The position numbers were made by a program, and so were the translations under genes. DNA of 64,000 nucleotides from Patescibacteria group bacterium (GTDB taxonomy: Bacteria > Patescibacteriota > Doudnabacteria > UBA920): contig WARV01000005.1 in NCBI GenBank assembly GCA_013387205.1, forward strand, positions 27,924 to 91,923, read 5' to 3'. How positions within the stretch are numbered: the stretch's first letter is position 1; each line of letters starts with the position of its first letter. The notes under the pieces were generated by a model. It was not told the origin of the DNA and made no database searches. It saw only the letters and a program-made list of their open reading frames with translations. This document shows, piece after piece, positions 35,701 to 54,500 of the stretch.

Positions 35701-35822
35701 TAATCTTAATTAACCCTTAAATTAAGCTAATTTTACCATTTTTTGGCTCATTCATAAAGATGCTTCCAATCGCTCAATATTAAAAGCCGCAAGCGCAATC
35801 GCCAACGGCTTTTAATAGTTTA

Positions 35823-36254
35823 CTAACTTGCTTTTTGTCTAATGTTTACGCTGCGTAAATATTTGTAAAAGACAGCCATCCCGTCTGAATCCCCCGAAGG
35901 AACTAGTGAACCATTGGCATCCAGAGTTACGGTCAGCTGACAGGTTTTACCTGGGCGGTTGCCGTAAATCATATAGAGGATACCAGGGATGATAGCAAGC
36001 CAGAGCAGTAGAAACGCCACCAGGCAGCTACCTTTCTGGGCAGGAATAACTTTCTGGTAGCTGAGCAGAGTTGCGGATTTATTGGCCAGTACCCAGCCCC
36101 TACCATAAGAGGCCATGAATTGTTCAAATGACTGAAGATGGGTTTGATTAGCAGGTGTCTGCTGGCCGGAACCTTCGGCCAAATCCCGGTTGCAGTACTT
36201 GCAAAATACAGCAGCGTCCTGGATTTCCTCAAAACAAAATGGACATTTCTTCAT
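35823..36254 (-). CDS. Zinc-ribbon membrane protein (paralog 1)
   Basis: 143 aa. N-terminal MKKCPFCFEEIQDAAVFCKYC zinc ribbon, then a TM segment (CLVAFLLLWLAIIPGILYMIY). Confidence 0.5.
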   Translation of the reverse strand: MKKCPFCFEEIQDAAVFCKYCNRDLAEGSGQQTPANQTHLQSFEQFMASYGRGWVLANKSATLLSYQKVIPAQKGSCLVAFLLLWLAIIPGILYMIYGNRPGKTCQLTVTLDANGSLVPSGDSDGMAVFYKYLRSVNIRQKAS

Positions 36255-36258
36255 AGGG

Positions 36259-37416
36259 TTATTGATTGTTCTTTAACGCCGCATAAGTTGCCAGCACATT
36301 CTGCATAGCCGTCTTTTCTGCCGCTGTGATGTCGCGGTCTTTGTAGTACTTATCACCCTCGTAGCGCATCTTGGTTTTCGTTCCGGCAAGGACAGCGTTG
36401 ATAATTTTCATTTCGTCATCACCAACCAGGGTGACCGAAGTTTCCCAGACCGTGCTGTTATTATCCCGGCTGACTGAGAGCGGAATGTAGTTATAGTTTA
36501 CTCCGTCTATGTTGAAGATATATTTGTTAACGAACAGCCAGTCGTCGCCGTGGTAAGTCACTTTCATCCAGAGAGTCGGTTGTCCGTTATCCGGTTTGTC
36601 GATCAGCAGCATTACAACGCTCTGCCAATAGCTGGGAGGAAAGCCCTTGTCATAATAAGTCGTGGTCTTTTTAATATCATCATAATCAGAACCCATTTTA
36701 GACAGGACGGCTTTGGTCTTTGCGTCAGCTTCTGCTTTGGCCTTTGCCTGGGCTTCCTGGTCGACCTTGGCTTTAGCGGCAGCTTCAGCATCAGCCTGCG
36801 TCTTGGCTGTTTTTTCTTCCTCGGTGAAGATGCGTTTTACGCTTAAAGTATTAGTAGTCTTTTTGCCGCCATTAGTAGCAGTAATATTAATTTGGTTTCT
36901 GCCTTCGTTCGGGACAGGAGTCTGGTAATCAAAGCTGCCATCTTTTTGAACAGTAACTCGTTTATTGTTTATGAGCAGCATTGACCCTGCTGGATTGACC
37001 TTGCCTTTGACGCTGACTGTTTTGGCCTGGACGGTATAGCCACTCGCAGGTTCAGTAATAGTAAGGGAAGGCGCACGGCCTGCATAAGCAGTGGAGATTT
37101 TTAAAACCGCAAATACCAGGACGATAGCTACAGTGGCAATCGTGTTGGTCTTTGCGGTAAACTTGGTTTTTTTCCAGAGGAACCAGATTCCGGCACCTGG
37201 GATAGTCAGGTACCACAGGAACGGAGTTAGGATAACTAATAGCACTATAGCGGAAATCTTTAAGATCTTTTTGATTCCCGCTGACTGGCTTGGCATGTGC
37301 GGCAGGGCTGCCGCAACTGCTGGTTGTGCAGAGGCCGGGACAAGGCTCTTTTTGCAGTGCCTGCAAACGGTAGCCTGATCCTGGATGTCCTCGGCGCAAT
37401 AGGGACATTTTTTCAT
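36259..37416 (-). CDS. Zinc-ribbon membrane protein with extracytoplasmic Ig-like and A/K-rich segments (paralog 2)
   Basis: Start set at MKKCPYCAEDIQDQATVCRHC (13 codons inside the track ORF). Two TM helices, a beta-rich domain, then an AKAKAEADAKTKA-type low-complexity stretch. GC-rich. Confidence 0.55.
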   Translation of the reverse strand: MKKCPYCAEDIQDQATVCRHCKKSLVPASAQPAVAAALPHMPSQSAGIKKILKISAIVLLVILTPFLWYLTIPGAGIWFLWKKTKFTAKTNTIATVAIVLVFAVLKISTAYAGRAPSLTITEPASGYTVQAKTVSVKGKVNPAGSMLLINNKRVTVQKDGSFDYQTPVPNEGRNQINITATNGGKKTTNTLSVKRIFTEEEKTAKTQADAEAAAKAKVDQEAQAKAKAEADAKTKAVLSKMGSDYDDIKKTTTYYDKGFPPSYWQSVVMLLIDKPDNGQPTLWMKVTYHGDDWLFVNKYIFNIDGVNYNYIPLSVSRDNNSTVWETSVTLVGDDEMKIINAVLAGTKTKMRYEGDKYYKDRDITAAEKTAMQNVLATYAALKNNQ

Positions 37417-37440
37417 TGTAGTTTCCTTGATCGGTTTTTC

Positions 37441-37570
37441 CTGGCCGGATAACATAAAGGCCCCCGCCAGGAGCTCGACCCTTTCGGGCCGAACGCATGG
37501 GTTTCCCCATACGACCGATCAAGGAACCCTGACGAGGGGTTCTATATCTTGATCGGATTTTTTGACCATA
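37441..37570. other. GC-rich structured element (candidate ncRNA or structured 5' leader)
   Basis: An ~130-nt island of ~60% GC in AT-rich DNA. Long-range stem ccttgatcgg ... ccgatcaagg encloses ggcccccgccaggagctcgaccctttcgggcc. An extra hairpin gaaccctgacgaggggttc and a third cttgatcgg copy follow. The overlapping track ORF 37052-37522 is probably spurious. Confidence 0.3.
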
Positions 37571-37958
37571 TCCCTTAGAAGTATAAGGGGGTTAGGTCGT
37601 TGAGTTGTTAAGATAATTATACGACATTTAAGCCGATTAATCCAGTCCATTTTAACTTAGTATTGGAAGGTTGCGAAGTACTAGTTATCTACTGCTGTGG
37701 ATATCTTTATATTGACTCGATAGTGGGCAGTGCTATCATTTTATATAGAACAACTACATATAAAAACACGCTCGCCCGACTCTGATCCGGGGTCACAAAT
37801 TGCGGATCAAATTAATTATTAACGAATTACTTATTTAACTGAATTGGGGCTTGACACTTAGCTGTGTCAGGCTTACACCAATTCAGATTTTTTGTAAGCC
37901 GACCTAGCTTTGTGTCGGCTGTTTTGATGTGTGGCTAAAAATCATTAATTAGAACCAT

Positions 37959-39257
37959 ATGTCAACACAAAAAGGAACGAAAACAACTTGCTTGCAATGG
38001 CACAACGAAAAGCGCAGGGTCAAAGACCTGCTGCCGTGGGATAAAAATCCCAGAACTCTTTCCGAAGAGCAGGAAGAACACCTAAAGGAATCTATCTCCA
38101 AATTTAATTTGGCAGAGATTCCCGTAATCAACCTGGACAATAAAATTGCCGCGGGACATCAACGTTTGAAAATTCTGCATCTGCTCGGCAGGAGCAATGA
38201 GATAATCGATGTAAGGGTGCCAAACCGCAAACTGACCCAAAAAGAGTTTGAGGAGTATAACCTCAGGAGCAATGCAAACGTGGGCTCATGGAATTATGAA
38301 ATGCTTTTGGAGCACTTTGAGATCGACACTCTCTTGGAGATCGGGTTTGACGAGCAGGCTTTGGCAGACGTGTGGGATGGCATGCTCGAAACGGAGGACG
38401 ATAATTTGGACTTGGAAAAAGAAATCAAAAAAGCCCAGAGCACCAAAATTAAGCCTGGGGATATGTTTTCCTTAGGCAGGCACACTTTACTCTGCGCCGA
38501 TAGCCTTGAACTTAAAAACATTAAGCGCCTGGTCTGCAACCAAAAAATGGACGTGTTGTATGTAGATTTACCCTATAATACAAAACTCTCGTACTCTGAA
38601 GGCGTTGGCAAGAAGCGCAACTATGGCGGCCATACCAATGACAACAAAACCGATGCCGAATATGAGCAGTTTGTTACGACTATGGTTAGCAATGGATTGG
38701 CAGTTTCCAAACCCGATGTCCATAGTTTCTTCTGGTGTGATGAAAGGTATATTGGGTTATTTCAGAAAGTCTTTGCCAACTGCGGCATTAATTCGCTCCG
38801 CGTATGTTACTGGCTCAAGAACGGCTTTAACGTGACACCGCATGTGGCCTTTAATAAAGTTTTGGAAGCTTGCGTCTACGGTACGGTTGGCAAGCCCTAC
38901 TTAAATCCAAACGCTACAAATTTGCATGAGTTGCTTAACAAAGAACTCGGCACTGGTAACCAGTTGGCTGATGACATTTTGGATCAGTTTAACATTTGGC
39001 TGGCCAAGCGTGATGCCGGGCAAGATTACGAGCACCCGACCCAGAAGCCAATTACATTAGCCGAGCGCCCATTAAGGCGTTGCAGCAAACCAGGCGACAA
39101 TGTGCTGGACTTAACGGCTGGTAGCGGCTCGACAATATTGTCGTGCGAGCAACTTAAACGCCGCTGCTTTGCCTGCGAGATCGAACCAGTGTTTTGCCAG
39201 GTAATCATTAACAGATTTGAAACTTATGCCAAACAAAAAGTTAAAAAACTCAACTAA
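37959..39257 (+). CDS. ParB-like nuclease domain fused to N6-adenine/N4-cytosine DNA methyltransferase
   Basis: 432 aa. N-terminal ParB/Srx-like region (WDKNPRTLSEEQEEHLKESISKFNLAEIPVI). C-terminal MTase motifs: DLPYN (motif IV variant), HPTQKP, DLTAGSGST (motif I). Confidence 0.75.
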   Translation: MSTQKGTKTTCLQWHNEKRRVKDLLPWDKNPRTLSEEQEEHLKESISKFNLAEIPVINLDNKIAAGHQRLKILHLLGRSNEIIDVRVPNRKLTQKEFEEYNLRSNANVGSWNYEMLLEHFEIDTLLEIGFDEQALADVWDGMLETEDDNLDLEKEIKKAQSTKIKPGDMFSLGRHTLLCADSLELKNIKRLVCNQKMDVLYVDLPYNTKLSYSEGVGKKRNYGGHTNDNKTDAEYEQFVTTMVSNGLAVSKPDVHSFFWCDERYIGLFQKVFANCGINSLRVCYWLKNGFNVTPHVAFNKVLEACVYGTVGKPYLNPNATNLHELLNKELGTGNQLADDILDQFNIWLAKRDAGQDYEHPTQKPITLAERPLRRCSKPGDNVLDLTAGSGSTILSCEQLKRRCFACEIEPVFCQVIINRFETYAKQKVKKLN

Positions 39258-40008
39258 AGAAATTGAAATCAAATACGGTGACCAGTTTGCACTTGGCGAG
39301 CATAAGTTACTGTGTGCGGATGCCGCTGACACCAAAACCATTTCCGCTTTCATCGGCAACGCTAAAATCAGCCAGATAAACTGTGATGTTCCATACGGAA
39401 TTGAGTATGCCCAATCGAAGGCTGGCTTTGGCAAAATTAAGGTGGACAAGGAAATTTTAAACGACGATTTTGTCTCAGACAGCCAGTATGCAGCCTTTAC
39501 CAAATCCTGGCTGGATGCCGTGGTACCACACCTGGCCAAAAAGAATTCCGTGTATATCTTTAACTGCGATAAAATGTTGTTTGCCCTTCGTGACGGTATG
39601 CAGCAAGCTGGAGTGAAATTTTCCCAGCTTCTCATCTGGATCAAGAGCCAGGCAGTCATTGGACGCAAAGATTATCTGCCAGCCCACGAACTTATTGCTT
39701 ATGGCTGGGCCGGAACTCACGAGTTCCACCGTTCCAAAGACAAAAGCGTACTGTATTATCCTAAGCCTTCCAAAAGTCCACTTCACCCGACTCAAAAACC
39801 AGTTGGCCTTATTCGTAAGTTAATTCTGAATAACACGAAAATTGGGGATACGGTTTACGACTGCTTTAGTGGTAGCGGAACTTGTTTAATTGCTTGCGAG
39901 CAAACCAGGCGTAAATGCTTGGCGGTTGAACTTGACCCACAGTATTGCCAGACTATTATTACCCGCTACGAAAAATTAACAGGTATTAAGGCTAAAAAGT
40001 TAACTTAA
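39217..40008 (+). CDS. DNA methyltransferase (N6-A/N4-C, beta-class), paralog of the preceding MTase domain
   Basis: 263 aa. DVPYG (DPPY variant), HPTQKP and DCFSGSGT motifs. Overlaps the previous gene by 41 nt. Confidence 0.75.
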   Translation: MKLMPNKKLKNSTKEIEIKYGDQFALGEHKLLCADAADTKTISAFIGNAKISQINCDVPYGIEYAQSKAGFGKIKVDKEILNDDFVSDSQYAAFTKSWLDAVVPHLAKKNSVYIFNCDKMLFALRDGMQQAGVKFSQLLIWIKSQAVIGRKDYLPAHELIAYGWAGTHEFHRSKDKSVLYYPKPSKSPLHPTQKPVGLIRKLILNNTKIGDTVYDCFSGSGTCLIACEQTRRKCLAVELDPQYCQTIITRYEKLTGIKAKKLT

Positions 40009-40012
40009 GTTT

Positions 40013-40447
40013 ATGATTACCGACAAACAAAAACAATTATTACTTGAGCAATTGAGAAAAACGCCGATCATCCAGTTGGCTACTGAAAAAACCGGCATCT
40101 CTCGCATGACTTACTATCGCTGGAGACGGGAAAGCCAAAAGTTTAAAAGGGCGGCTGACGAAGCCTTGGCCCAGGGAGAGCTCCTGATTAACGATTTATC
40201 TGAAGGGGTGCTCATATCTTTAATTAAGGAGAAAAATTTTCAGGCAGTTTCCCTGTGGCTAAAACAACACCATCCTAAGTATGCGGCAAGGTTAGAAATT
40301 TCCGGCCGCATCGAGCATGAAGACGGCAATCTTTCGGCTAAGCAAAAAGCCATTATTAAGCAGGCCCTGCGCCTGTCTATGATTAACAAACAAAACTACT
40401 ATGAACAAAGAAAAGGAGTTCCAAAAGATCCAGCACTGGATGCTTAG
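40013..40447 (+). CDS. Terminase small subunit-like HTH protein
   Basis: 144 aa. HTH (LATEKTGISRMTYYRWRRE) and an LWLKQHHPKYA-type segment typical of phage TerS. Immediately upstream of terL and overlapping it. Confidence 0.5.
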   Translation: MITDKQKQLLLEQLRKTPIIQLATEKTGISRMTYYRWRRESQKFKRAADEALAQGELLINDLSEGVLISLIKEKNFQAVSLWLKQHHPKYAARLEISGRIEHEDGNLSAKQKAIIKQALRLSMINKQNYYEQRKGVPKDPALDA

Positions 40448-41900
40448 TGACATTAAAGTCAGGAGGGAAATCGTTACCAAAGACCACAGTTGGTTTTTCA
40501 GCTATTACTTAACCGGCCACCACGACCTGGAAACCGCCCCTTTCCAGCACGAGATGCTGGCTATCACCGAAGACCCAAAAGTCGATTTGGCGGTGATAAC
40601 CGCCTTTAGGGACAGCGGCAAAAGTACTATTTGTACCCTGTCTGGCGTATTGTGGTCGGTCTTAGGATGCCAAAAGAAAAAGCTGGTTATCATTATCGGC
40701 AAGACTTTAGACAAAGCCCAGACCCATCTGGTCAACATCAAGCACGAGTTGGAAAATAATGAGATGCTCAGGAAAGACTTAGGGCCTTTCCAAGAAATCA
40801 GTGGTCAGTGGGGCCTTCAGGCTTTGATTATTCCAAAGTACAATGCCAAGATCATGGTAAGCTCAGTCGGCCAATCCGTGCGTGGTGAAAAATATTTGCA
40901 AAGCCGCCCTGACCTGATTATTTTGGACGACGTGGAAGATCTGGAATCCGTCAAAACCAAAGAGAGCCGTGACGGCCTCTGGAACTGGTTTGTCGGCGAA
41001 GTCCTGCCTGCCAGAAGCCATAACAATTCCAAAGTCATCGTGGTAGGCAACCACCTGCACGAAGATTCGCTGCTTAAAAAGCTTCAAAAGAAAATTGAAG
41101 CCGGGGAAATTGACGGGATCTACCGTGAATATCCGATTATGGATAAAGATAAAAATCCCTTGTGGCCAGCCAGGTATCCTGACATGGCGGCTATCGAAGC
41201 CAAAAGAAAAAGTACTATGGACGAGCGAGCCTGGTACCGCGAGTTTTTGCTAATTATTCTGCCTGACGACGACCAAATCGTTAAGTCTGAATGGCTGCAG
41301 GAGTACGAACCTGGACAGCTTCCTGATAAGGATTTTCGCTATGCGGCGATGGGTGTGGATCTGGCTATCTCCCAACGCAGTAAGGCAGATAGTACCGCAA
41401 TAATTCCGGTTTATGTTTACGGAAACCAAGAAAACCTCAAAGTTTACCTGCTGCCACACCCAATCAACAAGCAGATGACAGGGTTGGAAACTTTGCAAAC
41501 ACTTAAAAATCTGTCTGACACTTTAAGCACAAGAGGCCGTGCCAAAATTTTTATCGAGAACAACGGCATGCAGCAGGTATTTGTTGAACAATTACAGAAC
41601 GCAGGATATCCGGCAGTAGGTATGCCTTCTTACGGCTCTGACAAACCGGGTAGGTTTAAATCCATCAGCCACTTGATCCAGGGAGCTAAAGTTTTCTTTC
41701 CCAAAGGGTGTTATCAAGAACTGCGGCAGCAGATGCTGGGCTTTGGCGTGGAAGCCCATGATGACTTGGTTGACGCCCTGACTTTACTGCTCCAAGGTGT
41801 AATGAAGGAAGATAGGCCAGCATGCAGGACTGGATGTTTTCCAGTGCCGACATGGTCAACCGGTAGGACTGAGTTCGGAAAAAGCATTGCGGTGTATTAA
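40401..41900 (+). CDS. Phage terminase large subunit
   Basis: 499 aa. Walker A AFRDSGKST, Walker B LIILDDVEDL, and a C-terminal RNase H-like nuclease region with conserved acidic residues (GVDLAIS ... EAHDDLVDAL). Confidence 0.8.
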   Translation: MNKEKEFQKIQHWMLSDIKVRREIVTKDHSWFFSYYLTGHHDLETAPFQHEMLAITEDPKVDLAVITAFRDSGKSTICTLSGVLWSVLGCQKKKLVIIIGKTLDKAQTHLVNIKHELENNEMLRKDLGPFQEISGQWGLQALIIPKYNAKIMVSSVGQSVRGEKYLQSRPDLIILDDVEDLESVKTKESRDGLWNWFVGEVLPARSHNNSKVIVVGNHLHEDSLLKKLQKKIEAGEIDGIYREYPIMDKDKNPLWPARYPDMAAIEAKRKSTMDERAWYREFLLIILPDDDQIVKSEWLQEYEPGQLPDKDFRYAAMGVDLAISQRSKADSTAIIPVYVYGNQENLKVYLLPHPINKQMTGLETLQTLKNLSDTLSTRGRAKIFIENNGMQQVFVEQLQNAGYPAVGMPSYGSDKPGRFKSISHLIQGAKVFFPKGCYQELRQQMLGFGVEAHDDLVDALTLLLQGVMKEDRPACRTGCFPVPTWSTGRTEFGKSIAVY

Positions 41901-41908
41901 AATGGCCG

Positions 41909-42604
41909 CTAACAAACGAATTTTTTCTGTTTTTTGCTGTATGAACACTTAACCGCATCAGTTTTGCCGTCTGATAAGCATTGCCTTACCAACTCGATCA
42001 GCTGGTCAGATATGACTTTGCCTTTTTGGTATGCATAATGGTAACCGAAGTTGCCTTTGCTCGGATGCGGTACGCCAATGATTTTGCGATTAGGATAAAC
42101 GTAAGCCAGTAACTCAAAAGCGTGATTGCCCACAGCAATCAGCGGCGTATTTTCCGGTATTAGAGAAATTTCTTTACTGAGGTAATTGCTGATGCTGTAG
42201 CGTATGGTGTTGAGAGATAAGGCTTTAACGTTTTTATTGCTTTGGCATTTAACTAATTCTGTCCAGAGGATTGGGCCGGTTAAACCAGTCTTGTCAGCCA
42301 AGTCCCGTAGCGGACCATAAAAATTTATATAGTCTTTGCGATTGAGTTCCCAGTAGCGCACAGCAGCTGGGTAATTTCGGTTTGCCTTGTCTGTAAAATA
42401 TATGGTTTCCTCCGGCCTTGCACGGCCAGGGTTCATGCCGACAATGATAGCACTTTTGCCCTTGCGGCCGTCTATTTCGTAGTAAAGGCATCGGGCGATG
42501 ATGCCTTGTTCGGGTTGGTAGTCGATATCAGAAAAGCTTTGCCAGGTTTTGTCATCCATCATGCGCTGGCCAATTACGGCGATTTGTTCGGAGATTGATT
42601 GCAT
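41909..42604 (-). CDS. Uracil-DNA glycosylase superfamily protein (MUG/SMUG-like motifs)
   Basis: 231 aa. Motif A IIVGMNPGRA and motif B GVPHPSKGNFGY are spaced ~130 aa apart, as in the UDG fold. Confidence 0.55.
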   Translation of the reverse strand: MQSISEQIAVIGQRMMDDKTWQSFSDIDYQPEQGIIARCLYYEIDGRKGKSAIIVGMNPGRARPEETIYFTDKANRNYPAAVRYWELNRKDYINFYGPLRDLADKTGLTGPILWTELVKCQSNKNVKALSLNTIRYSISNYLSKEISLIPENTPLIAVGNHAFELLAYVYPNRKIIGVPHPSKGNFGYHYAYQKGKVISDQLIELVRQCLSDGKTDAVKCSYSKKQKKFVC

Positions 42605-42610
42605 AGCTTT

Positions 42611-43261
42611 TTAAGTTTTAATTTTCAGAGGCATGCCTGCCTTTGTGACTTCCCATCCTTTCAAGTACCGAAAAAGAATCCCCGTAATTTCCATAAAAGC
42701 CATAAGCGCTTCCAGATAACCAGAGTCTGGTATAGCTTCGTCCATGGAGCTGATTTTAATCACTACAGTATGTTCGGATTCGTTGGGTTTGCTCAAAGCA
42801 TTGGCAAAATGTTTGTCCGAAAGATGGATGTATCCTGAAGTATGTTCGTAGACATTTTTTAATTGCGGGTACTCCTGGGCAAGGCTTTCGATAAGGTAGC
42901 CGTCTTTTAGTTTTCGGCCATCTTTATCTTTCAGCGTATTAATTTTGGTTCCTTTAAAAACTTCCATGGCAAAATCATGAAGATCTTTTACCAGCCACGC
43001 TGCTCGGTAGCGCAGTAAATTATCCAGTTGCATGCGAATCAGCGGGGCTGCGGCTATAAAATTATGTTTTTCAATCAGATCGCAGAATCCCGACATTAGG
43101 CATAATGAGCGGTTCATGACTGCAAAAGAAAACAGATCCATAGGATACAGTTTTCCATCAGCTGCCCTCATTATTTTTTCTCCCACTTCTTTATGGTCAT
43201 TGACCGTAGAACGCAGACTTGCAATTGCTTGCTTGATTTTGTCAGAAAGCTCTATTTCCAT
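42611..43261 (-). CDS. Hypothetical protein
   Basis: 216 aa with no motif recognised. The gap to the UDG-like gene is 6 nt and to the HEPN-like gene 20 nt. Confidence 0.45.
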   Translation of the reverse strand: MEIELSDKIKQAIASLRSTVNDHKEVGEKIMRAADGKLYPMDLFSFAVMNRSLCLMSGFCDLIEKHNFIAAAPLIRMQLDNLLRYRAAWLVKDLHDFAMEVFKGTKINTLKDKDGRKLKDGYLIESLAQEYPQLKNVYEHTSGYIHLSDKHFANALSKPNESEHTVVIKISSMDEAIPDSGYLEALMAFMEITGILFRYLKGWEVTKAGMPLKIKT

Positions 43262-43281
43262 GTTTTTGTCCCAATGGCTAA

Positions 43282-44619
43282 TTAAGAAATTTTTACCAGT
43301 AGTAATGCTATGACATTTTCCATTGATTTAAATACAAGCGACAAAGTTTTGTCATCTTTTAAAATAAATCCTTTATGAGCATAAGCGCACCGTAATTTGT
43401 AAAGATCATTAAACCACGGCAGCAATTCCGGCTTTAGCGCATGAATGCCGCCGACAATATATTTCTTGTTGTCGCTATTCACATTTTTAGGTACAAAAAG
43501 GTGTTCCAAGCTGCAATACATAAGCAAAATTTTAGCGCCAAGATCTGGAATCTGAGTGGCAGAACTCAAGATGTCCAGCGTAGGTTGAATATCATTGACA
43601 CTCCTCTCAGTCCAAGGGTTTTTCAAGCTATCCAAAATTTTTTGGTTTTCTAAAAAGAACTTTTCTATTCCGCCAAACGTACGATCGTCGATATACATCT
43701 TAGCCAGGCCTCGGTAGCCGTAAGACAAAAACAGGCAGCCATCGGGCGTCTTTAGCCAAGGTTCTCTTTTGTCTTCGTCCCAACTAAAAACTCCCAAGTA
43801 GCCGCTGTTTAGAAGGACAGGCGAAGTTGGCGCTTCCAGCCTAACGTCAGATTGCCCGAAATCCATCTGTGGCCGGTAGATGAAACTGGCGATTCGCAGC
43901 ATATTAAAAAAAGTTCTGAGCCAAGCGGAAGCGTACCAGTAGGCATAAGTCATCGATCCTTCGGTTGCAAATCCTATGGAAGGAGAGTGAAAAAAATTTT
44001 TGGCTTCTTTTTTATTATACTGTCGTAAATGGGGTTGGTATTGTTGATGTTTGGCAACAAGCTGGCTGGCTTTCAAAAAACAGACAAACGGCAGACTAAG
44101 TTTTGCAAATAAGCCGTCAAAAAATGCCTGCACGTCTCCAAATGGAGTATCGAAATACGAGACTGTGGTTACTAACGTCTGCGATTGAACAAATCCTTTC
44201 AAGCGCTCGAAATATTCCTCAATGATTGCCTGATATCCTTTTGTTTTATCACGCCAAGGCACTACGAATTGACTTTCGTCAACATACGACCCGCCCCCAA
44301 CCCTTTTGTGATATTCCTTTTCATCACTAAATTCAAAAGCCATTTTGCAGCGAAATAAAATATTAGTTACGTCAGCGGGAGAAATTTTCAGGCCTTTATC
44401 GACGAAGTATTCGCACTCTTTCTGTATTAAAGGCAGCAAAAAACGCTGGTGATAATATTGTTCTTTACCCCATTTATCAACGGGTGGCATCAATTTGGCA
44501 AGAGAGGCTTCTGTATCAGCCACTCGCTCGAGATGTAGCCACATCTGCTCACCAATTTGGTTTTTGACGGTTTGTAAAAAAGAAGTCGGCATAGATATAT
44601 TGTAGCACTTTTCGGCCAA
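43282..44619 (-). CDS. Hypothetical protein with C-terminal HEPN-like Rx4H motif
   Basis: 445 aa. The C-terminus NDLYKLRCAYAHKGF contains RCAYAH (R-x4-H), analogous to the motif in the 28878-30011 protein. Confidence 0.45.
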   Translation of the reverse strand: MAEKCYNISMPTSFLQTVKNQIGEQMWLHLERVADTEASLAKLMPPVDKWGKEQYYHQRFLLPLIQKECEYFVDKGLKISPADVTNILFRCKMAFEFSDEKEYHKRVGGGSYVDESQFVVPWRDKTKGYQAIIEEYFERLKGFVQSQTLVTTVSYFDTPFGDVQAFFDGLFAKLSLPFVCFLKASQLVAKHQQYQPHLRQYNKKEAKNFFHSPSIGFATEGSMTYAYWYASAWLRTFFNMLRIASFIYRPQMDFGQSDVRLEAPTSPVLLNSGYLGVFSWDEDKREPWLKTPDGCLFLSYGYRGLAKMYIDDRTFGGIEKFFLENQKILDSLKNPWTERSVNDIQPTLDILSSATQIPDLGAKILLMYCSLEHLFVPKNVNSDNKKYIVGGIHALKPELLPWFNDLYKLRCAYAHKGFILKDDKTLSLVFKSMENVIALLLVKIS

Positions 44620-44722
44620 ACTAGCGGCTTTTCCTTAGCTTTCCGGGGTCTGGACTTCCTCTGCAATTTGAGTCATTCCTTTGATTGTGAGTGATATTTT
44701 GTATATAATTAATAAAGAAGCT

Positions 44723-45643
44723 ATGTCAAAAATTACAAAACCTGTGTTAATAACAGAATATGGACACCTTTATAAGGGTGATTGTTTACAGATAATGAGA
44801 GGGATAAAATCTGAAAGCGTTGACCTGTTTTTTGCCGACCCTCCATTTAACCTGAATAAATCTTACGGGAATGGTGTCAGGGATGACTTGCAGGAAAGCG
44901 AATATCTGGAATGGTGCCACAAGTGGATTGATGAAGGCGTGCGCGTCCTTAAACCCGGAGGTTCATTTTTTCTCTATAATATTCCCAAATGGAATGTCCA
45001 GCTGGCAAGCTATATTTCCAAGTCTTTAAATTTCCGGAGCTGGATAGCAATAGAAATAACTTTTTCTCTTCCGATTAAAGGCAGGCTATATCCGTCTCAT
45101 TACTCCTTGCTCTATTTTGTAAAAGGTAAGAAGCCCAACACTTTTGAACCGCCAAGACTTCCAATGCAGGTTTGCCGTCACTGTGGTGGGGAAATAAAGG
45201 ATTACGGCGGATATAAAAATAAGATGAATCCCAAAGGGATCAACTTATCTGATATCTGGACTGATATACCGCCCGTTAGGCACAAGAAGTACAAAAATCG
45301 CGAAGCCAATGCTCTAAGCCTAAAACTGCTCGACAGGATCTTGGATATGTCCTCTAAAGAAGGTGATGTAATACTAGACCCTTTTGGTGGCAGCGGGACG
45401 ACTTATATAGCAGCCGAATTGAAAATGCGGAAATGGATTGGAATGGAGATATCTACCACTGATGAAATCACGAGACGATTTAAGAGCATGGCCAAGGATA
45501 AGGAATACTATGACTGCTTAAGAGAAAATGTAAATGTTTTATTTACAAAGAAAGCTTTGGAATTACGAAAAAAACACGGCCACCATAACGGTAAGTACGT
45601 GCTTAGCGAAACAAATATTACAAAACAAAAAGCGTTGTTCTAA
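44723..45643 (+). CDS. DNA methyltransferase (N4-C/N6-A, beta-class) of a candidate type II R-M pair
   Basis: Start set at MSKITKPVL. Motif IV FADPPFN, motif I DPFGGSGTT. A CxxC ... zinc-finger insertion (CRHCGG) is present. Confidence 0.75.
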   Translation: MSKITKPVLITEYGHLYKGDCLQIMRGIKSESVDLFFADPPFNLNKSYGNGVRDDLQESEYLEWCHKWIDEGVRVLKPGGSFFLYNIPKWNVQLASYISKSLNFRSWIAIEITFSLPIKGRLYPSHYSLLYFVKGKKPNTFEPPRLPMQVCRHCGGEIKDYGGYKNKMNPKGINLSDIWTDIPPVRHKKYKNREANALSLKLLDRILDMSSKEGDVILDPFGGSGTTYIAAELKMRKWIGMEISTTDEITRRFKSMAKDKEYYDCLRENVNVLFTKKALELRKKHGHHNGKYVLSETNITKQKALF

Positions 45644-45646
45644 AAA

Positions 45647-46291
45647 CTATAATAAGGCTCTGCCATCCGTACCTTTTGGAATGCGCGGAGCTTTTTTATT
45701 TAGTCCGTCCTGCTCTACTACAATAATATAGATTACACCATTTTTGTACGGGATACTTTGCCAGAGCGGCAGGTATGGCGCTATTTCCCTGAAGTTACCG
45801 ACCCGGTCAGTAAGATAGGGATAGAGATTTGTAGATGGTAAAACCAATACTCCACCGGCGAGTTCTTTATTTAAAACTCCTAAGCAGATTTTATTCAGTG
45901 CCCTGTGGCTGGATGATATATTGCCAGTTTCCCATTCAATAGCAAACAGACCGAAAGGTGTTTCCCGGACAGCATCAAGAGGGCCTGTACCGGCCACTCC
46001 GCGCGGACGCAGGCGCAATTCATCCTTCCAGCCCTTGGTTTTCAAATAAGTTATACAAGCTTCTTTGATAGGTTTGACGCCGTTTCCCTCACCACGGCCT
46101 TTGCCTTTTGAGTTAGGATTTAAGTAAAAACCAGCAGAACCGGGAGGCCAGGAAATTTTACTAATCGCAGCCTTTATCTCTTTTTCTATTTGAACCATTA
46201 TTAAAGAGCGCGGTAAAGGACCTTTTTTCAAAATATATTTTGTATCAACGATTTTCATATTTCTGGCTAAAGTATAAATTAATTGTATCAC
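45647..46291 (-). CDS. Putative type II restriction endonuclease (BamHI/BglII-like D...ExE signature)
   Basis: 214 aa. LDAVRETPFGLFAIEWETGN gives D ... E-W-E, as in BamHI-like catalytic cores. Convergent with the MTase gene. Confidence 0.4.
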   Translation of the reverse strand: MIQLIYTLARNMKIVDTKYILKKGPLPRSLIMVQIEKEIKAAISKISWPPGSAGFYLNPNSKGKGRGEGNGVKPIKEACITYLKTKGWKDELRLRPRGVAGTGPLDAVRETPFGLFAIEWETGNISSSHRALNKICLGVLNKELAGGVLVLPSTNLYPYLTDRVGNFREIAPYLPLWQSIPYKNGVIYIIVVEQDGLNKKAPRIPKGTDGRALL

Positions 46292-46390
46292 TAAATTTAC
46301 CAGCAGTCACTACCAAGCCCATCAAAGAAAATACGACGTTTTTCCTAGCTTTGCGGGGTCTGGACTTACTTTGGAATTAGCGTCATTCCT

Positions 46391-47731
46391 TTGCTTGTAG
46401 AGATTATTAACTTTTACAAGCATATGCAAGCAAACCAAGGGGTTTTGGCGGGCAGTGTTGAGTACTGCCTGTATGCTCGGAAAAGTACCGAGCAGGATGA
46501 GCGACAGGCTTTGTCCATTGATTCCCAGATCAAGGAAATGATGAGCCTGGCCGAGCGGGAGAACTTAACTATTAAGGAAATCAGGCGGGAGAGCCATTCA
46601 GCAAAAAACTCCGGCTGTAGGCCCGTATACAACGAGCTGATTTTAGATGTCCGAAGCGGCAAGTTTTCGGGCATCCTGACTTGGGCACCGGACAGGTTAA
46701 GTAGGAATGCAGGTGACTTGGGAGCCATTGTGGATTTAATGGATCAGGGTCACTTAAAGGAAATCAGAACCCACGGCCAAAGGTTTACCAATTCGCCGAA
46801 CGAAAAATTCTTGCTAATGATCCTTTGTAGCCAGGCTAAGCTGGAAAACGACAACCGGGGCATTAACGTCAAGCGTGGCCAAAAGACCAAAGTGGAAATG
46901 GGTATGCGGCCATGCATGGCACCACTGGGATACCTGCAAATCATGGACGGCCGAAGCAGAAGGAGCAAGACCATAGTAGATTCAGAAAGAGCGCCCATAA
47001 TCAAAGACATTTTTGAATACGTAGCCTACGGCCACGCCTCAGGCCGGGACATTCTAAAGTGGATTAACAACAACACCAATTTTAAAACCCGAAAAAATAA
47101 ACCCGTAGCTTTAAGCATGGTCTATAACATGCTGAGAAACCCATTCTACTACGGCGAGTTTGAATACCCCAAAAACAGCGGCAAATGGTATCATGGTTTG
47201 CACGAGCCGCTGATTACCAAAGAGCTGTTCGACAAAGCCCAAGAAAAGCTGGATCAGGCACCCACAGCCAAAAGTTGGAACGCCAAGGTGTTTGATTACA
47301 CCAAGCTATTCCAGTGCGGCGTGTGCGGCTCTGGGGTTACAGCGCAGGAAAAGTTCAAGAAAATCAAGGACGGCAGCATGAGGCGGTATGTCTACTATAA
47401 CTGCACGGGAGGATTAAACCGGGAGTGTAAACAGCCATATATTAGGGAAGAAGAGCTGCAAAGCCAGCTGCTGGAATTAATCGACCAGGTCAACCTTGAT
47501 CAGATGGGTATCCAACAAAAAGTCATCGAGGAAGTGGAACGGTACAAAAAGCTGCTGCATGGCGTATTCGGGCAAAAAGACCAGCTAATTAAAATGTACG
47601 AGGTAGACCCCAAAGCTTATGCCAAACACATTCTTAGAGAGGGAACCAAAGACGAAAAGCGGGAAATATTATCCTGCTTTAAGGACCAGATTTACCTTAA
47701 GGACAAAAAGATTTATCTAAGTAAAAAGTAG
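46391..47731 (+). CDS. Large serine recombinase (resolvase N-terminal domain + recombinase domain + zinc ribbon)
   Basis: 446 aa. N-terminal YARKSTEQDERQALSIDSQ (catalytic Ser region), DRLSRN motif, recombinase-domain segment YGHASGRDILKWIN, and C-terminal CGVCGS ... YYNC zinc ribbon. Confidence 0.85.
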   Translation: MLVEIINFYKHMQANQGVLAGSVEYCLYARKSTEQDERQALSIDSQIKEMMSLAERENLTIKEIRRESHSAKNSGCRPVYNELILDVRSGKFSGILTWAPDRLSRNAGDLGAIVDLMDQGHLKEIRTHGQRFTNSPNEKFLLMILCSQAKLENDNRGINVKRGQKTKVEMGMRPCMAPLGYLQIMDGRSRRSKTIVDSERAPIIKDIFEYVAYGHASGRDILKWINNNTNFKTRKNKPVALSMVYNMLRNPFYYGEFEYPKNSGKWYHGLHEPLITKELFDKAQEKLDQAPTAKSWNAKVFDYTKLFQCGVCGSGVTAQEKFKKIKDGSMRRYVYYNCTGGLNRECKQPYIREEELQSQLLELIDQVNLDQMGIQQKVIEEVERYKKLLHGVFGQKDQLIKMYEVDPKAYAKHILREGTKDEKREILSCFKDQIYLKDKKIYLSKK

Positions 47732-47739
47732 CTCCTAAA

Positions 47740-48759
47740 TTAAGCCTCAAGAAGTTTTGCCCGAATTTCATTTAAATGGACCGATCCGGACTGATCGGGC
47801 GGAAATATTTCTCTTAACGAATACGGAAAATATCCGCTAATGGCTGGCCAGAGGCGGTATGAATCAATAATAAAATTCCCGGCTTCAAATTTGTCCGGCG
47901 CTGTAGTTGTCAAAATATATAATTTTAGACCGTGATTTTTGGCCGCATCCCAGATAATTTTATTGACATGCTTATCGTGAAATCCGTAACCGATGACCAG
48001 CAATTTTTTATTGCCTTCCTTGAGGACAGCCTTAAATAATTCCAGATAATACTTCAGTAAGGGCTCGTTGTTTATTTCTTGTTCCTTGTTGACCCCAATA
48101 ATCATTTGGCTGCCGCCGTGCGCCGACCTCCAGCCGAACGAGCCATGCAGTTTTATGTAATGTAGGGTGTTAGTATTTTGAATAATTTCTTTTTCAGCCA
48201 AATCAGCGGCATTTTCGCCCGGCAAGGTAACGGAGTAAGTTGGCAAAAATTCCCTTTGTGATAGAGTAGTAAACTCCTGAGGGAATCTCGGCGCACCCGG
48301 GGACATAAAATTGTTTCTTCTTTCCATAAAGATATCCTGATTTAAGGTGAAAAAGAAACCTCTCTCTGAGGGAGTACCTACAAACAGATTCAAAAGCTCG
48401 CCAAGCTTATAAGTGTCTAAGGAGGTCGGATTATCGTCGTTCATCTGCCATGTCCGTATGGAATCGTCGAGTTGTTTGTAAACTTGTTCCATCACTGACT
48501 GCAAAACTTGCTTCTCTTCTTCAGTAAAAGCCGGGGTAGGCAGGCTGGTATTACCATCGCTATCAATTCCATGCACGACTTTGGAATAAACAGACTCGAA
48601 ATCATAATCCATGCTAAGCAGATTTTTGATACGTTCTTGCCGACTAATCTGAGCATGGTTAAAAATCTTTGACCACATTTCGCGGGCAAGAAAACCATTG
48701 AAGTTTTTGGTAAATCCAGCTCCAGTCAGTAAAACAAGGCGTTTTGAGGCAATAGGCAT
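47740..48759 (-). CDS. SIR2_2-family (Sir2-like NADase-type) protein, standalone
   Basis: 339 aa. LLTGAGFTKNFNG (Rossmann GAGxS), FTLNQD (TxNYD-like), IKLHGS (catalytic His) and LLVIGYGFHDKHVN. Confidence 0.7.
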   Translation of the reverse strand: MPIASKRLVLLTGAGFTKNFNGFLAREMWSKIFNHAQISRQERIKNLLSMDYDFESVYSKVVHGIDSDGNTSLPTPAFTEEEKQVLQSVMEQVYKQLDDSIRTWQMNDDNPTSLDTYKLGELLNLFVGTPSERGFFFTLNQDIFMERRNNFMSPGAPRFPQEFTTLSQREFLPTYSVTLPGENAADLAEKEIIQNTNTLHYIKLHGSFGWRSAHGGSQMIIGVNKEQEINNEPLLKYYLELFKAVLKEGNKKLLVIGYGFHDKHVNKIIWDAAKNHGLKLYILTTTAPDKFEAGNFIIDSYRLWPAISGYFPYSLREIFPPDQSGSVHLNEIRAKLLEA

Positions 48760-48770
48760 GCGGGATAAAT

Positions 48771-48920
48771 TTAGTGTTCAATATTCCTTTCCTCTTCTGG
48801 CGACATCAGCAAACCTCCACCGCACACCGAACAGTCAGCAATATCAATAGTGACCTCTCGCCATTGCTGGCAATCCGAACAAAACCTTTTTACCACTAGT
48901 TCTCCGTTTTTAAATCTCAT
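48771..48920 (-). CDS. Small zinc-ribbon protein (49 aa) upstream of the SIR2-like gene, below the ORF-track cutoff
   Basis: MRFKNGELVVKRFCSDCQQWREVTIDIADCSVCGGGLLMSPEEERNIEH (CxxC ... CxxC). Stop lies 11 nt before the SIR2 start. An extended -10 (TGGTAAAAT) sits 6 nt upstream of the ATG, suggesting a leaderless transcript. Confidence 0.3.
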   Translation of the reverse strand: MRFKNGELVVKRFCSDCQQWREVTIDIADCSVCGGGLLMSPEEERNIEH

Positions 48921-49034
48921 AATAGTATTTTACCACTATATGAGATAAGGGGGAATTCGCGCCACGTAAGTATCGAACCAAAAATTATACAGCCTTTACC
49001 GCAGTTCTAGACCGGAAAGCATCAAGGACAAATT

Positions 49035-49067
49035 TAAAAACCATGGGGACAAAATTTCCATGGTTTT
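49035..49067. terminator. Bidirectional terminator-like palindrome
   Basis: aaaaaccatggggacaaaatttccatggttttt is a 10-bp stem with an A-run on one side and a T-run on the other. Confidence 0.5.
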
Positions 49068-49136
49068 TAAATCTTTGGACTGTTAATACAATAGTTTTGT
49101 TGGAAGACACTACGGTCTTCCAGAACCAAGTATTAG

Positions 49137-49211
49137 TGGCTGGGGTGGAAGGATTCGAACCTTCGAATGGCGCCTCCAAAGGGCGCTGCCTTACCACTTG
49201 GCGACACCCCA
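49137..49211 (-). tRNA. tRNA-Gln (anticodon UUG)
   Basis: 75 nt: UGGGGUG acceptor with U1:A72, D-arm GCCAAGUGGUAAGGC, anticodon stem GCGCC/GGCGC with loop CUUUGGA, T-arm GAAGGUUCGAAUCCUUC, discriminator G, encoded CCA. Confidence 0.8.
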
Positions 49212-54326: not shown

Positions 54327-54500
54327 ATGGTTATCGCAACGACGGAAAATAAAGGAACTTGCCCGAAATGCAAGAAGGAGGTCAATTTCCTGGTCAACGA
54401 CAGCACTAACACGGGACCGGTGGTCTACGAATGCCGTGAATGCAGAGAGGTAATTGAGGCTAATAACCTCGAGGAATTACAGGAAAAATTGGCTGCATGA
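54327..54500 (+). CDS. Small zinc-ribbon protein (57 aa), below the ORF-track cutoff
   Basis: MVIATTENKGTCPKCKKEVNFLVNDSTNTGPVVYECRECREVIEANNLEELQEKLAA. Preceded by an SD (aaggagg) 7 nt upstream and followed directly by a strong terminator. Confidence 0.5.
   Translation: MVIATTENKGTCPKCKKEVNFLVNDSTNTGPVVYECRECREVIEANNLEELQEKLAA

What the first reader, a model, noticed from the sequence alone, without database searches (positions are those of the whole stretch)
47740..48920. Standalone SIR2_2-family protein preceded by a 49-aa zinc-ribbon micro-ORF, at the tRNA-proximal end of the element
The 339-aa protein has the Rossmann GAGFT, TLNQD and KLHGS motifs of SIR2_2 NADase-type defence domains. 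It lacks the fused partner domains found in the familiar SIR2 defence proteins, such as SLOG, HerA, STAND, pAgo or DSR-type extensions. The only adjacent candidate partner is an unannotated 49-aa CxxC ... CxxC ORF ending 11 nt upstream, which appears to have a leaderless promoter. A minimal SIR2 plus a zinc-ribbon micro-protein pair could be a compact NAD-depleting abortive-infection module.
Basis: partly seen in the sequence, partly recalled or inferred. Interest (0 to 1): 0.6.

Follow-up and report, generated by a model that had tools for sequence, protein, structure and literature searches.

The report
Solo SIR2 enzyme beside unrelated zinc-ribbon gene
The 339-aa gene is a real single-domain SIR2-type enzyme, predicted to break down NAD+, from a large partner-less family found near defence and mobile-element genes; the 49-aa zinc-ribbon gene upstream is also real, but it is an independent small gene, not a conserved partner.

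Summary
The three SIR2 motifs, the 11-nt gap and the nearby tRNA-Gln are all correct.

**The SIR2 protein**
- It is a confident single-domain SIR2_2 protein (AlphaFold2 pLDDT 92).
- It has no cysteines, so it has no sirtuin zinc module.
- Its catalytic Asn, Asp and His are invariant across 78 homologues.
- It belongs to a family of more than 1,100 proteins of about 330 aa, found in candidate-phyla-radiation bacteria (CPR/Patescibacteria), several other bacterial phyla and archaea.
- Its closest solved relatives are the SIR2 subunits of SIR2-HerA systems, not CobB-like deacetylases.
- No HerA and no other conserved neighbour was found in the loci examined. Neighbours are often restriction-modification genes, OLD-type ATPases, DUF4238, AbiE, PycTM-like proteins and serine recombinases.
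- In this window it sits next to a prophage remnant that carries Hachiman and a BamHI-type restriction-modification system.

**The micro-ORF**
- It is a genuine gene. It has homologues of 44-49 aa with conserved cysteines, under purifying selection.
- None of the 85 SIR2 loci checked carries it, and none of the 7 distinct micro-ORF loci carries a SIR2 gene.

The proposed two-gene module is therefore not supported. The most likely reading is a stand-alone NAD+-depleting defence effector, which is inferred and not shown. A single-protein "sole-Sir2" defence system has already been described in a preprint, so novelty is modest.

The parts
47740..48759 (-). 339-aa single-domain SIR2_2 ('sirim') protein. 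It carries GAGFT (48709-48723), TLNQD (48334-48348; N140, D142) and KLHGS (48139-48153; H205). It has no cysteines.
   Evidence: Searches give the ORF and motifs. PF13289, 34.6 bits. PADLOC SIR2, E 1.4e-16. T12, G13, A14, N140, Q141, D142 and H205 are invariant in 26 and 78 homologues. AlphaFold2 pLDDT 92.3, pTM 0.91; closest solved relatives are the SIR2 subunits of SIR2-HerA.
48760..48770 (-). 11-nt spacer between the micro-ORF stop and the SIR2 start. It has no Shine-Dalgarno-like sequence and no terminator, so co-transcription is likely (inferred).
   Evidence: sequence; no terminator reported between the two ORFs.
48771..48920 (-). 49-aa zinc-ribbon protein gene (C14xxC17...C30xxC33). It is a real gene, conserved elsewhere, but it is not linked to SIR2 in other genomes.
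   Evidence: codon-usage score 0.093 per codon, against 0.186 +/- 0.081 for real genes and -0.05 +/- 0.10 for spurious ORFs; homologues P0126, P0128 and P0129; alignments with the first cysteine pair invariant and the second conserved in the full-length members; pN/pS 0.11-0.41 in 20 of 21 pairs. AlphaFold2 pLDDT 85.5, beta-hairpins at the CxxC knuckles; the nearest folds, none statistically significant, are mostly zinc-ribbon or zinc-knuckle modules; no SIR2 in its homologues' loci.
48927..48935 (-). Extended -10-like motif TGgTAAAAT that ends 6 nt before the micro-ORF ATG. It is compatible with a leaderless transcript but is unverified.
   Evidence: sequence. It was not picked up by the -35/-10 consensus scan.
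48984..48989 (-). Perfect TATAAT hexamer about 64 nt upstream of the micro-ORF ATG. This is an alternative promoter -10 element and is unverified.
   Evidence: sequence.
49032..49072 (-). Perfect 15-bp inverted repeat with an 11-nt loop, followed by a T-rich stretch. It looks like a terminator for tRNA-Gln and would insulate the micro-ORF/SIR2 transcription unit.
   Evidence: inverted repeat I5, 100% complementary; predicted fold.
49137..49211 (-). tRNA-Gln (anticodon TTG). Its 3' end faces the micro-ORF, the SIR2 gene and the recombinase gene.
   Evidence: ARAGORN; Rfam tRNA, 64 bits.
46391..47731 (+). Large serine recombinase (integrase), convergent with SIR2; the two stop codons are 8 nt apart. 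This is the commonest neighbour type across the SIR2 family.
   Evidence: Resolvase + Recombinase + Zn_ribbon_recom; phrog_95 integrase, E 5.7e-63; a homologous recombinase lies within 5 kb in 10 of 81 loci.
32408..46291 (.). Context: a prophage remnant and defence island. It contains Hachiman (HamB 32408-34885, HamA 34885-35700), three N6/N4 DNA methyltransferases (37959-40008 and 44681-45643), terminase small and large subunits (40013-41900), a UDG-like gene (41909-42604) and a BamHI-type endonuclease (45647-46291).
   Evidence: Pfam; PADLOC HamB, E 2.3e-71; phrog_38 terminase large subunit, E 1.3e-76.

Best explanation
The 339-aa gene encodes a stand-alone, single-domain SIR2_2 enzyme that most likely hydrolyses NAD+. 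It belongs to a large, strongly conserved family of about 330-aa proteins with no conserved partner gene.

The most likely role is a one-protein abortive-infection or defence effector carried in defence islands and integrative elements. On this model, the enzyme is kept inactive until infection. It is then switched on by a change in its own oligomeric state or by direct binding of a phage product or small molecule, and it depletes NAD+ to stop phage replication.

**Shown:** the fold, the catalytic residues, family size, absence of a partner, genomic context.

**Inferred:** NADase activity, the defence role, the activation mode.

The upstream 49-aa ORF is a genuine zinc-ribbon protein gene of unknown function that is conserved on its own in other genomes. 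In this genome SIR2 lies 11 nt downstream of it and probably uses its promoter. The two are not a dedicated module.
For: **SIR2 identity and active site**
- GAG, N140, Q141, D142 and H205 are invariant in 78 sequences.
- single domain, pLDDT 92.3.

**Closest relatives are antiphage SIR2s**
- Profile against PDB sequences: 8yhx E 6.9e-13, 8j4u E 3.1e-11, 8w9l E 8.7e-5. All are SIR2 subunits of SIR2-HerA.
- Foldseek: SIR2-HerA chains E 2e-7 to 1e-5 with TM 0.5-0.6, then ThsA (7uxt) and KomBC (9v12). No canonical sirtuin scored E <= 0.001.

**Partner-less family**
- More than 1,150 homologues; the top 120 are 267-359 aa.
- 254 hits among 185,579 species genomes, spread over many phyla and archaea.
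- Clustering neighbours from 81 loci finds no gene shared by more than 10 loci.
- Pfam censuses of 75 upstream and 69 downstream neighbours show no recurrent family and no HerA.

**Defence and mobile-element context**
- Window: Hachiman, BamHI-type restriction-modification, terminase remnant, serine integrase.
- Type I restriction-modification (L081, L096).
- AAA_15/21 ATPase + HEPN_AbiU2 between two recombinases (L082).
- OLD/AriA-like ATPase, DUF4238 and a PycTM-like protein directly upstream.
- AbiEii, DpnII and DUF2726; DUF4238 downstream; methyltransferase + MutH-like gene.

**Turnover.** About 9 of 80 copies look interrupted, as is typical of accessory genes.

**Precedent.** A stand-alone 'sole-Sir2' has NADase activity, and a homologue of it protects against phages T2 and T4 (bioRxiv 10.1101/2024.12.27.630466). 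Stand-alone FAM118B needs filament formation for activity (PMC12700824).

**Micro-ORF independence.**
Against: - No experiment supports NADase activity or phage protection for this family.
- Many neighbours of homologues are ordinary housekeeping genes such as AcrB, ACS/CODH, aminoacyl-tRNA synthetase and glycosyltransferases. No matched control for defence-gene enrichment was run.
- No full-length match to any PADLOC or NCBIfam defence model. NF042942 scores 33.8 bits against a cut-off of 500.
- A 339-aa enzyme has no visible sensor, so the trigger is unknown.
- The tight 11-nt spacing, with no ribosome-binding site before SIR2, leaves room for a local functional link with the micro-ORF in this one genome.
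Confidence: 0.58

Rival explanations
1. SIR2 and the 49-aa zinc-ribbon protein form a dedicated two-gene NAD-depleting abortive-infection module, with the micro-protein acting as sensor, regulator or antitoxin.
For: The two ORFs are on the same strand with an 11-nt gap and no terminator, and SIR2 has no ribosome-binding site of its own. The micro-ORF is a real protein-coding gene.
Against: - The pair is not conserved in either direction. None of 80 genomic SIR2 loci has a homologous CxxC small ORF upstream, and tblastn finds no relative in 85 loci.
- The closest SIR2 homologues have unrelated upstream genes: P0002 (57% identity) a 183-aa ORF, P0004 a divergent gene.
- tblastn finds no SIR2 in any of the 9 fetched micro-ORF loci, which represent 7 distinct places. 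Their neighbours are rpsL-rpsG, membrane proteins and a putative NYN-domain protein.
Confidence: 0.06
2. The protein is a housekeeping sirtuin-type protein deacylase (CobB-like) that regulates metabolism.
For: It shares the SIR2 superfamily Rossmann fold and the catalytic histidine.
Against: - No PF02146 match at E <= 1.
- No cysteines, hence no Cys4 zinc module. This module is described as absent from sirims and present in sirtuins.
- No canonical sirtuin among PDB sequence or fold hits at E <= 0.001.
- Present in only about 0.14% of species genomes, patchily across phyla and archaea, often next to recombinases and restriction-modification genes.
Confidence: 0.03
3. It is an NAD-using enzyme serving the mobile element rather than host immunity. 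Examples would be an addiction or competition toxin, or an ADP-ribosyltransferase acting on a protein or nucleic-acid target, rather than a bulk NADase.
For: It recurs close to large serine recombinases (10 of 81 loci) and at element ends (window, L001, L003, L006, L082, L095). The chemistry cannot be told from sequence.
Against: Its closest relatives, by both sequence and fold, are NADase effectors of antiphage systems. Many copies are not next to any recombinase. No antitoxin-like conserved partner exists.
Confidence: 0.17
4. It is an effector used in trans. The solo SIR2 would be activated by a signal or partner encoded elsewhere, for example a HerA-like ATPase, a nucleotide second messenger, or a neighbouring system such as Hachiman or a Pycsar-like operon.
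For: Its closest relatives need HerA for activation (papers listed). In L007 the gene is translationally coupled to a PycTM-like gene; in L004 and L013 it follows OLD-type and KAP-type ATPases.
Against: No partner type recurs, and the upstream genes are mutually unrelated. There is no ligand-binding domain such as SLOG or Macro. No HerA family appears in the window genes scanned (about 28-51 kb) or among the 25 commonest Pfam families of each neighbour census.
Confidence: 0.1

Closest known systems
SIR2 subunit of SIR2-HerA (Nezha) antiphage systems (PDB 8yhx, 8j4u/8su9/8sub, 8w9l/8wld)
   Same: This is the closest solved relative by sequence profile (E 6.9e-13, 3.1e-11, 8.7e-5) and by fold (Foldseek E about 2e-7, TM 0.5-0.6). 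It shares the TxNxD and HGS motifs and the C-terminal GYGFxDxH motif, and it also lacks a zinc module.
   Different: The solved proteins are 380-430 aa against 339 aa here, at 14-18% identity. The NCBIfam equivalog NF042942 scores far below its cut-off (33.8 against 500 bits). No HerA gene lies next to this gene or its homologues.
sole-Sir2 (a CRISPR-supervised 'CRISIS' system; bioRxiv 10.1101/2024.12.27.630466)
   Same: It is a single-protein SIR2 system with no partner gene. The preprint reports NAD+ to ADP-ribose conversion in vitro, and a homologue that protects E. coli against T2 and T4. It is the best functional precedent.
   Different: sole-Sir2 is about 440 aa, with an extra N-terminal substructure and a SIR2 domain said to resemble that of DSR2. 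The protein here is 339 aa, is SIR2 only, and is closest to HerA-type SIR2s.
ThsA (Thoeris type I effector), DSR1/DSR2 and SPARSA SIR2-APAZ
   Same: All carry a SIR2_2 NADase domain with the same catalytic Asn and His. ThsA 7uxt is a weaker fold hit (E 1.6e-4), and Aga_SIR2 models give partial hits.
   Different: All of these have fused sensor or ligand domains (SLOG or Macro, roughly 700-aa C-terminal sensor regions, APAZ) or obligatory partners (ThsB, a short pAgo). None of these is present here.
Vertebrate FAM118B / SIRanc (a stand-alone SIR2_2 protein)
   Same: It has a similar size (about 350 aa) and a single SIR2_2 domain with no zinc module. Its NAD processing depends on self-assembly into filaments. 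It offers a model for how a sensor-less SIR2 can be regulated.
   Different: No detectable sequence match, and no FAM118 chain among the significant PDB hits. The FAM118 paper places it closest to ThsA rather than to HerA-type SIR2s. This is an analogy, not family membership.

Membership tests
SIR2_2 / 'sirim' (Pfam PF13289) | Match to PF13289 above the gathering threshold | tested here: met
   34.6 bits against a cut-off of 24.5, E 2.4e-8. All but one of the 120 listed homologues carry PF13289.
SIR2_2 / 'sirim' (Pfam PF13289) | NAD-pocket and catalytic residues: Rossmann GAG, Asn/Asp of the TxNxD motif, and the catalytic His | tested here: met
   G13-A14-G15, N140, D142 and H205 are present. 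T12, G13, A14, N140, Q141, D142 and H205 are invariant in 78 sequences.
SIR2_2 / 'sirim' (Pfam PF13289) | Absence of the sirtuin Cys4 zinc-binding module (criterion from bioRxiv 10.1101/2024.09.18.613514) | tested here: met
   The protein has 0 cysteines (translation). No cysteine column is conserved in the family.
SIR2_2 / 'sirim' (Pfam PF13289) | Central beta-sheet with seven or more strands | tested here: inconclusive
   DSSP on the model gives six long strands plus several 1-2-residue bridges. Sheet topology was not inspected.
SIR2_2 / 'sirim' (Pfam PF13289) | NAD+ hydrolase activity | not testable with these tools
   Requires biochemistry.
Canonical sirtuin deacylases (CobB/Sir2, PF02146) | PF02146 match, a Cys4 zinc module, and structural similarity to solved sirtuins | tested here: not met
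   No PF02146 hit at E <= 1. No cysteines. No sirtuin among PDB hits at E <= 0.001.
SIR2-HerA (Nezha) | An adjacent HerA-type ATPase gene | tested here: not met
   The gene downstream in the window is a convergent serine recombinase. HerA is not among the 25 commonest Pfam families of 75 upstream and 69 downstream neighbours. No shared neighbour cluster exists.
SIR2-HerA (Nezha) | The SIR2 subunit matches the equivalog model NF042942 | tested here: not met
   33.8 bits against a cut-off of 500; only residues 243-284 align.
Thoeris ThsA | A SLOG or Macro ligand-binding domain fused to SIR2, plus a TIR-domain ThsB gene | tested here: not met
   Single domain of 339 aa. No TIR gene in the window genes scanned, and TIR is not among the 25 commonest neighbour families.
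DSR1/DSR2 | A protein of about 1,000 aa with a large C-terminal phage-sensing region | tested here: not met
   339 aa, with stop codons bounding the ORF.
SPARSA (SIR2-APAZ + short pAgo) | An APAZ domain and an adjacent short Argonaute | tested here: not met
   Only partial Aga_SIR2 matches to the Rossmann C-terminal half. No pAgo appears among neighbours.
sole-Sir2 (CRISIS preprint) | A single protein of about 440 aa with an N-terminal extra substructure and a DSR2-like SIR2 domain | not tested
Length (339 aa) and nearest relatives (HerA-type SIR2s) differ from the description.
Proposed two-gene module (SIR2 + zinc-ribbon micro-protein) | Conserved co-occurrence of the two genes | tested here: not met
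   0 of 80 SIR2 loci have a homologous CxxC small ORF upstream. tblastn finds no relative in 85 loci. tblastn finds no SIR2 in the 9 fetched micro-ORF loci, 7 distinct places.

The most novel reading that the evidence does not exclude
The roughly 330-aa family is an autonomous, minimal SIR2 immune protein. A bare SIR2_2 domain, with only its helical insert and conserved C-terminal tail (GYFPY...FPxxQ), would both sense infection and deplete NAD+. It would probably do so by triggered self-assembly, as in FAM118B or ThsA filaments. It is spread by horizontal transfer through CPR bacteria, several other phyla and archaea.

A less likely add-on is that, in this genome, the resident zinc-ribbon gene has been co-opted as a translationally coupled regulator.
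Probability: 0.3. Interest if true: 0.55.

Novelty: new variant of a known kind. Interest (0 to 1): 0.3.

Why it matters
If the family really works alone, it would be the smallest SIR2 defence protein known. That would make it a simple model for how a SIR2 NADase is held off and switched on without a sensor domain or partner. It would also add a defence gene to CPR/Patescibacteria and archaea, whose immune repertoires are poorly charted.

For the scan itself, the main lesson is negative. Tight spacing with a small cysteine-rich ORF did not indicate a functional pair. The small ORF turned out to be a separate, conserved micro-protein family that gene callers often miss.

Tried and rejected
**Micro-ORF as a chance ORF or orphan.**
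- A word-based search of 5.8 billion proteins found nothing.
- A first metagenome scan with the single sequence also found nothing.
- A full phmmer scan and a scan with the alignment then found real homologues. The 'orphan or chance ORF' idea was dropped.

**A known RNA element in the 377-nt leader.** Rfam gave only the tRNA plus two sub-threshold hits. The fold shows only terminator-like hairpins.

**Invertible cassette or att repeats.**
- No meaningful inverted repeats flank SIR2.
- No duplicated tRNA-Gln fragment exists anywhere in the window.
- The only notable direct repeat brackets the restriction-modification cassette.
- Whether SIR2 lies inside or just outside the recombinase-borne element therefore stays open.

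**Phage origin.**
- Only 9 weak-to-moderate hits in 2.9 million viral contigs.
- No BFVD structural match.
- Only one weak PHROG hit.

**Hidden conserved partner at low sequence identity.** The 28 tightly spaced upstream genes were inspected and partly scanned. They fall into unrelated families: OLD, DUF4238, PycTM, KAP NTPase, DUF4145, DUF2726 and unknowns.

- The window's own SIR2 protein is not indexed for contig look-up.
Full report
**Observation**

The two ORFs are exactly as described. A 339-aa ORF lies at 47740-48759 (-) and a 49-aa ORF at 48771-48920 (-). They are separated by 11 nt. The quoted motifs are in the sequence:
- GAGFT: residues 13-17, 48709-48723.
- TLNQD: residues 138-142, 48334-48348.
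- KLHGS: residues 203-207, 48139-48153.

tRNA-Gln(ttg) lies at 49137-49211 (-) (Rfam 64 bits). A large serine recombinase gene (46391-47731, +) converges on the SIR2 gene, and the two stop codons are 8 nt apart.

Upstream of the micro-ORF there is an extended -10-like TGgTAAAAT that ends 6 nt before the ATG, and a TATAAT further up. A perfect 15-bp hairpin at 49032-49072 separates this unit from the tRNA. A leaderless start is therefore plausible. The consensus scan did not call a promoter there, and its hit count for the region was at chance level.

**What the 339-aa protein is**

It matches Pfam SIR2_2 above threshold and many PADLOC SIR2 models, the best at E 1.4e-16, but only partially. 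It scores far below the NCBIfam equivalog for the antiphage SIR2 (33.8 against 500 bits).

A database search found 1,150 homologues at E <= 0.001. The 120 best are 267-359 aa and 39-59% identical, and nearly all are annotated only as SIR2_2. In alignments of 26 and 78 members, T12-G13-A14, N140-Q141-D142, H205-G206-S207 and a C-terminal GYGFxD motif are invariant. The active site is therefore under strong constraint.

AlphaFold2 with the 78-sequence alignment gives one compact domain (pLDDT 92.3, pTM 0.91). The protein has no cysteines, so it lacks the Cys4 zinc module that defines canonical sirtuins and that is absent from the immune 'sirim' branch.

The only solved proteins found by a family profile are SIR2 subunits of SIR2-HerA systems (E 6.9e-13, 3.1e-11, 8.7e-5). 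Foldseek against the PDB gives the same chains first (E about 2e-7, TM 0.5-0.6, 14-18% identity). ThsA (7uxt) and KomBC (9v12) follow. No canonical sirtuin scored E <= 0.001.

**Is there a partner?**

A scan of one genome per species found 254 relatives among 185,579 species, and 80 loci were fetched. They come from many CPR/Patescibacteria lineages, Desulfobacterota, Nitrospirota, Planctomycetota (Scalindua), Elusimicrobia, Legionella and archaea (ANME-2, Methanoperedens).

- In the large majority of loci an in-frame stop lies within about 100 nt upstream of the start, so those proteins have no N-terminal fusion. Four loci leave room for up to about 100 extra residues. About nine copies look interrupted.
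- Clustering all neighbours within 5 kb found no gene shared by more than 10 of 81 loci. The commonest is a large serine recombinase.
- Pfam censuses of 75 upstream and 69 downstream neighbours showed no recurrent family and no HerA.

Many neighbours are defence or mobile-element genes:
- Type I restriction-modification next to the 57%-identical P0002, and next to P0018.
- An AAA_15/21 ATPase + HEPN_AbiU2 between two recombinases around P0004.
- Two recombinase-bearing elements around P0012.
- An OLD/AriA-like ATPase, DUF4238 and a PycTM-like protein directly upstream in L004, L008 and L007.
- A KAP NTPase, DUF4145 and a methyltransferase + MutH-like pair.
- AbiEii, DpnII and DUF2726.
- DUF4238 downstream in L098.

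Other neighbours are plainly housekeeping genes, and no control for enrichment was run.

In the window itself the gene borders a prophage remnant. This remnant carries terminase small and large subunits, three DNA methyltransferases, a BamHI-type endonuclease and a Hachiman system.

**The micro-ORF**

It first looked like an orphan:
- No CxxC small ORF of this type lies upstream of any of the 80 homologues.
- tblastn found nothing in 85 SIR2 loci.
- A word-based protein search found nothing.
- A single-sequence metagenome scan found nothing.

Its codon usage, however, fits genes better than spurious ORFs, and only 2 of 458 small ORFs in the window have the double CxxC pattern.

An exhaustive phmmer scan of 1.84 billion representatives then found same-length relatives: P0126 (49 aa, 62% identity, E 1.1e-10), P0128 (48 aa) and P0129 (37 aa, truncated). 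A profile search added P0133, and a second metagenome scan gave six loci at 55-62% identity.

- GEL-VKR-C-x2-CQ...EV-ID is invariant, and the second CxxC is conserved in the full-length members.
- Non-synonymous differences are 0.11-0.41 times as frequent per site as synonymous ones in 20 of 21 pairs.
- AlphaFold2 gives beta-hairpins with the CxxC knuckles (pLDDT 85.5). Its nearest PDB folds, none statistically significant, are mostly zinc ribbons or zinc knuckles such as the MCM N-terminal domain, Nop10, Rpb12/RpoP and the rubredoxin-like domain of rubrerythrin.

The micro-ORF is therefore a real zinc-ribbon protein gene. None of its homologues is next to a SIR2 gene: tblastn with the SIR2 protein found nothing in these loci. 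Their neighbours are rpsL-rpsG, membrane proteins, a putative NYN-domain protein and a putative 5'-3' exonuclease.

The likeliest history is that SIR2 landed just downstream of a resident small gene. Across the family, 28 of 76 upstream neighbours are same-strand genes within 80 nt, and they are mutually unrelated.

**Mechanism**

- **Shown:** an intact, conserved SIR2_2 active site; a single domain; no partner; an accessory, horizontally spread distribution; frequent defence or mobile-element neighbours.
- **Inferred from established knowledge of SIR2_2 effectors:** these include SIR2-HerA, ThsA and DSR2, which deplete NAD+ on infection (papers listed), sole-Sir2 and filament-dependent FAM118B. 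By analogy, the protein would hydrolyse NAD+ and be regulated through its assembly state or by direct binding of a phage factor.

I put about 0.55-0.6 on a stand-alone NADase defence effector and about 0.06 on the two-gene module. The remainder is split between an element-serving or non-NADase role, an effector used in trans, and a housekeeping role.

**Comparison and novelty**

The protein is a member of the SIR2_2/sirim superfamily. It fails the defining tests for SIR2-HerA (no HerA; equivalog score far below cut-off), ThsA, DSR and SPARSA.

A single-protein SIR2 defence ('sole-Sir2', about 440 aa) has already been reported in a preprint. The concept is therefore not new. This shorter, HerA-type-related, CPR-rich family is best called a new variant of a known kind. 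Literature searches found no description of it.

**Limits**

- The boundaries of the element could not be fixed: no att repeats were found and no empty site was available for comparison.
- The organism is inferred to be a CPR bacterium only from the taxonomy of the nearest homologues.

Noticed in passing
window 44629-44688 and 46339-46398: A 60-nt direct repeat (85% identical) brackets the BamHI-type restriction-modification cassette (methyltransferase 44681-45643, endonuclease 45647-46291). The second copy overlaps the start of the serine recombinase ORF. It looks as if the cassette was inserted with duplication of a 5' region.
   Followed up: no
L064 5435-7069; L082 10049-11712; L052 11969-13664; L001 6732-9175: In several CPR loci the 3' end of a large serine recombinase gene overlaps or abuts a tRNA gene on the opposite strand (tRNA-Gly, tRNA-His, tRNA-Arg). 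This suggests tRNA-targeting serine-integrase elements. L001 has the same recombinase - SIR2 - tRNA-Gln order as the window, but with SIR2 on the other strand.
   Followed up: partly
window 32408-35700: A complete-looking Hachiman system (HamB helicase, PADLOC E 2.3e-71; HamA/DUF1837) lies about 12 kb from the SIR2 gene, next to a prophage remnant with terminase genes but no structural genes in between.
   Followed up: partly
L102-L107, L099-L101 (micro-ORF homologues): There is a conserved family of 44-49-aa zinc-ribbon proteins (consensus MxxKNGELKVKRxCxECQKWYEVSIDxDECxxCGExLLM + an acidic tail). Only a handful were detectable as called proteins: four in the 5.8-billion-protein search and three of matching length in the 1.84-billion-representative search. 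One is labelled 'Nob1' by JGI. In L104 it follows rpsL-rpsG. Its function is unknown.
   Followed up: partly
L007 6794-8996: In a Gracilibacteria genome assembled from a metagenome, a 240-aa unknown gene, a PycTM-like two-transmembrane effector (PADLOC E 9.8e-33) and the SIR2 homologue form an overlapping three-gene operon. A methyltransferase + MutH-like pair follows. This may be a composite system.
   Followed up: partly
L097 3393-7993: A 1,207-aa protein with no Pfam or PADLOC match overlaps the start of the SIR2 homologue by 16 nt. It is a possible lineage-specific partner.
   Followed up: no
window 54327-54500 (+): This is the second small ORF in the window with a CxxC...CxxC pattern (57 aa, MVIATTENKGTCPKCKKEV...YECRECREV...). 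It may be another unannotated zinc-ribbon micro-protein.
   Followed up: no
P0125 (2,847 aa, not in the window): The best phmmer hit of the micro-ORF is a very large protein with 8 repeated stretches that match residues 21-40 of the micro-ORF (E 1.8e-12). It appears to be a repeat protein built from similar zinc-knuckle units.
   Followed up: no
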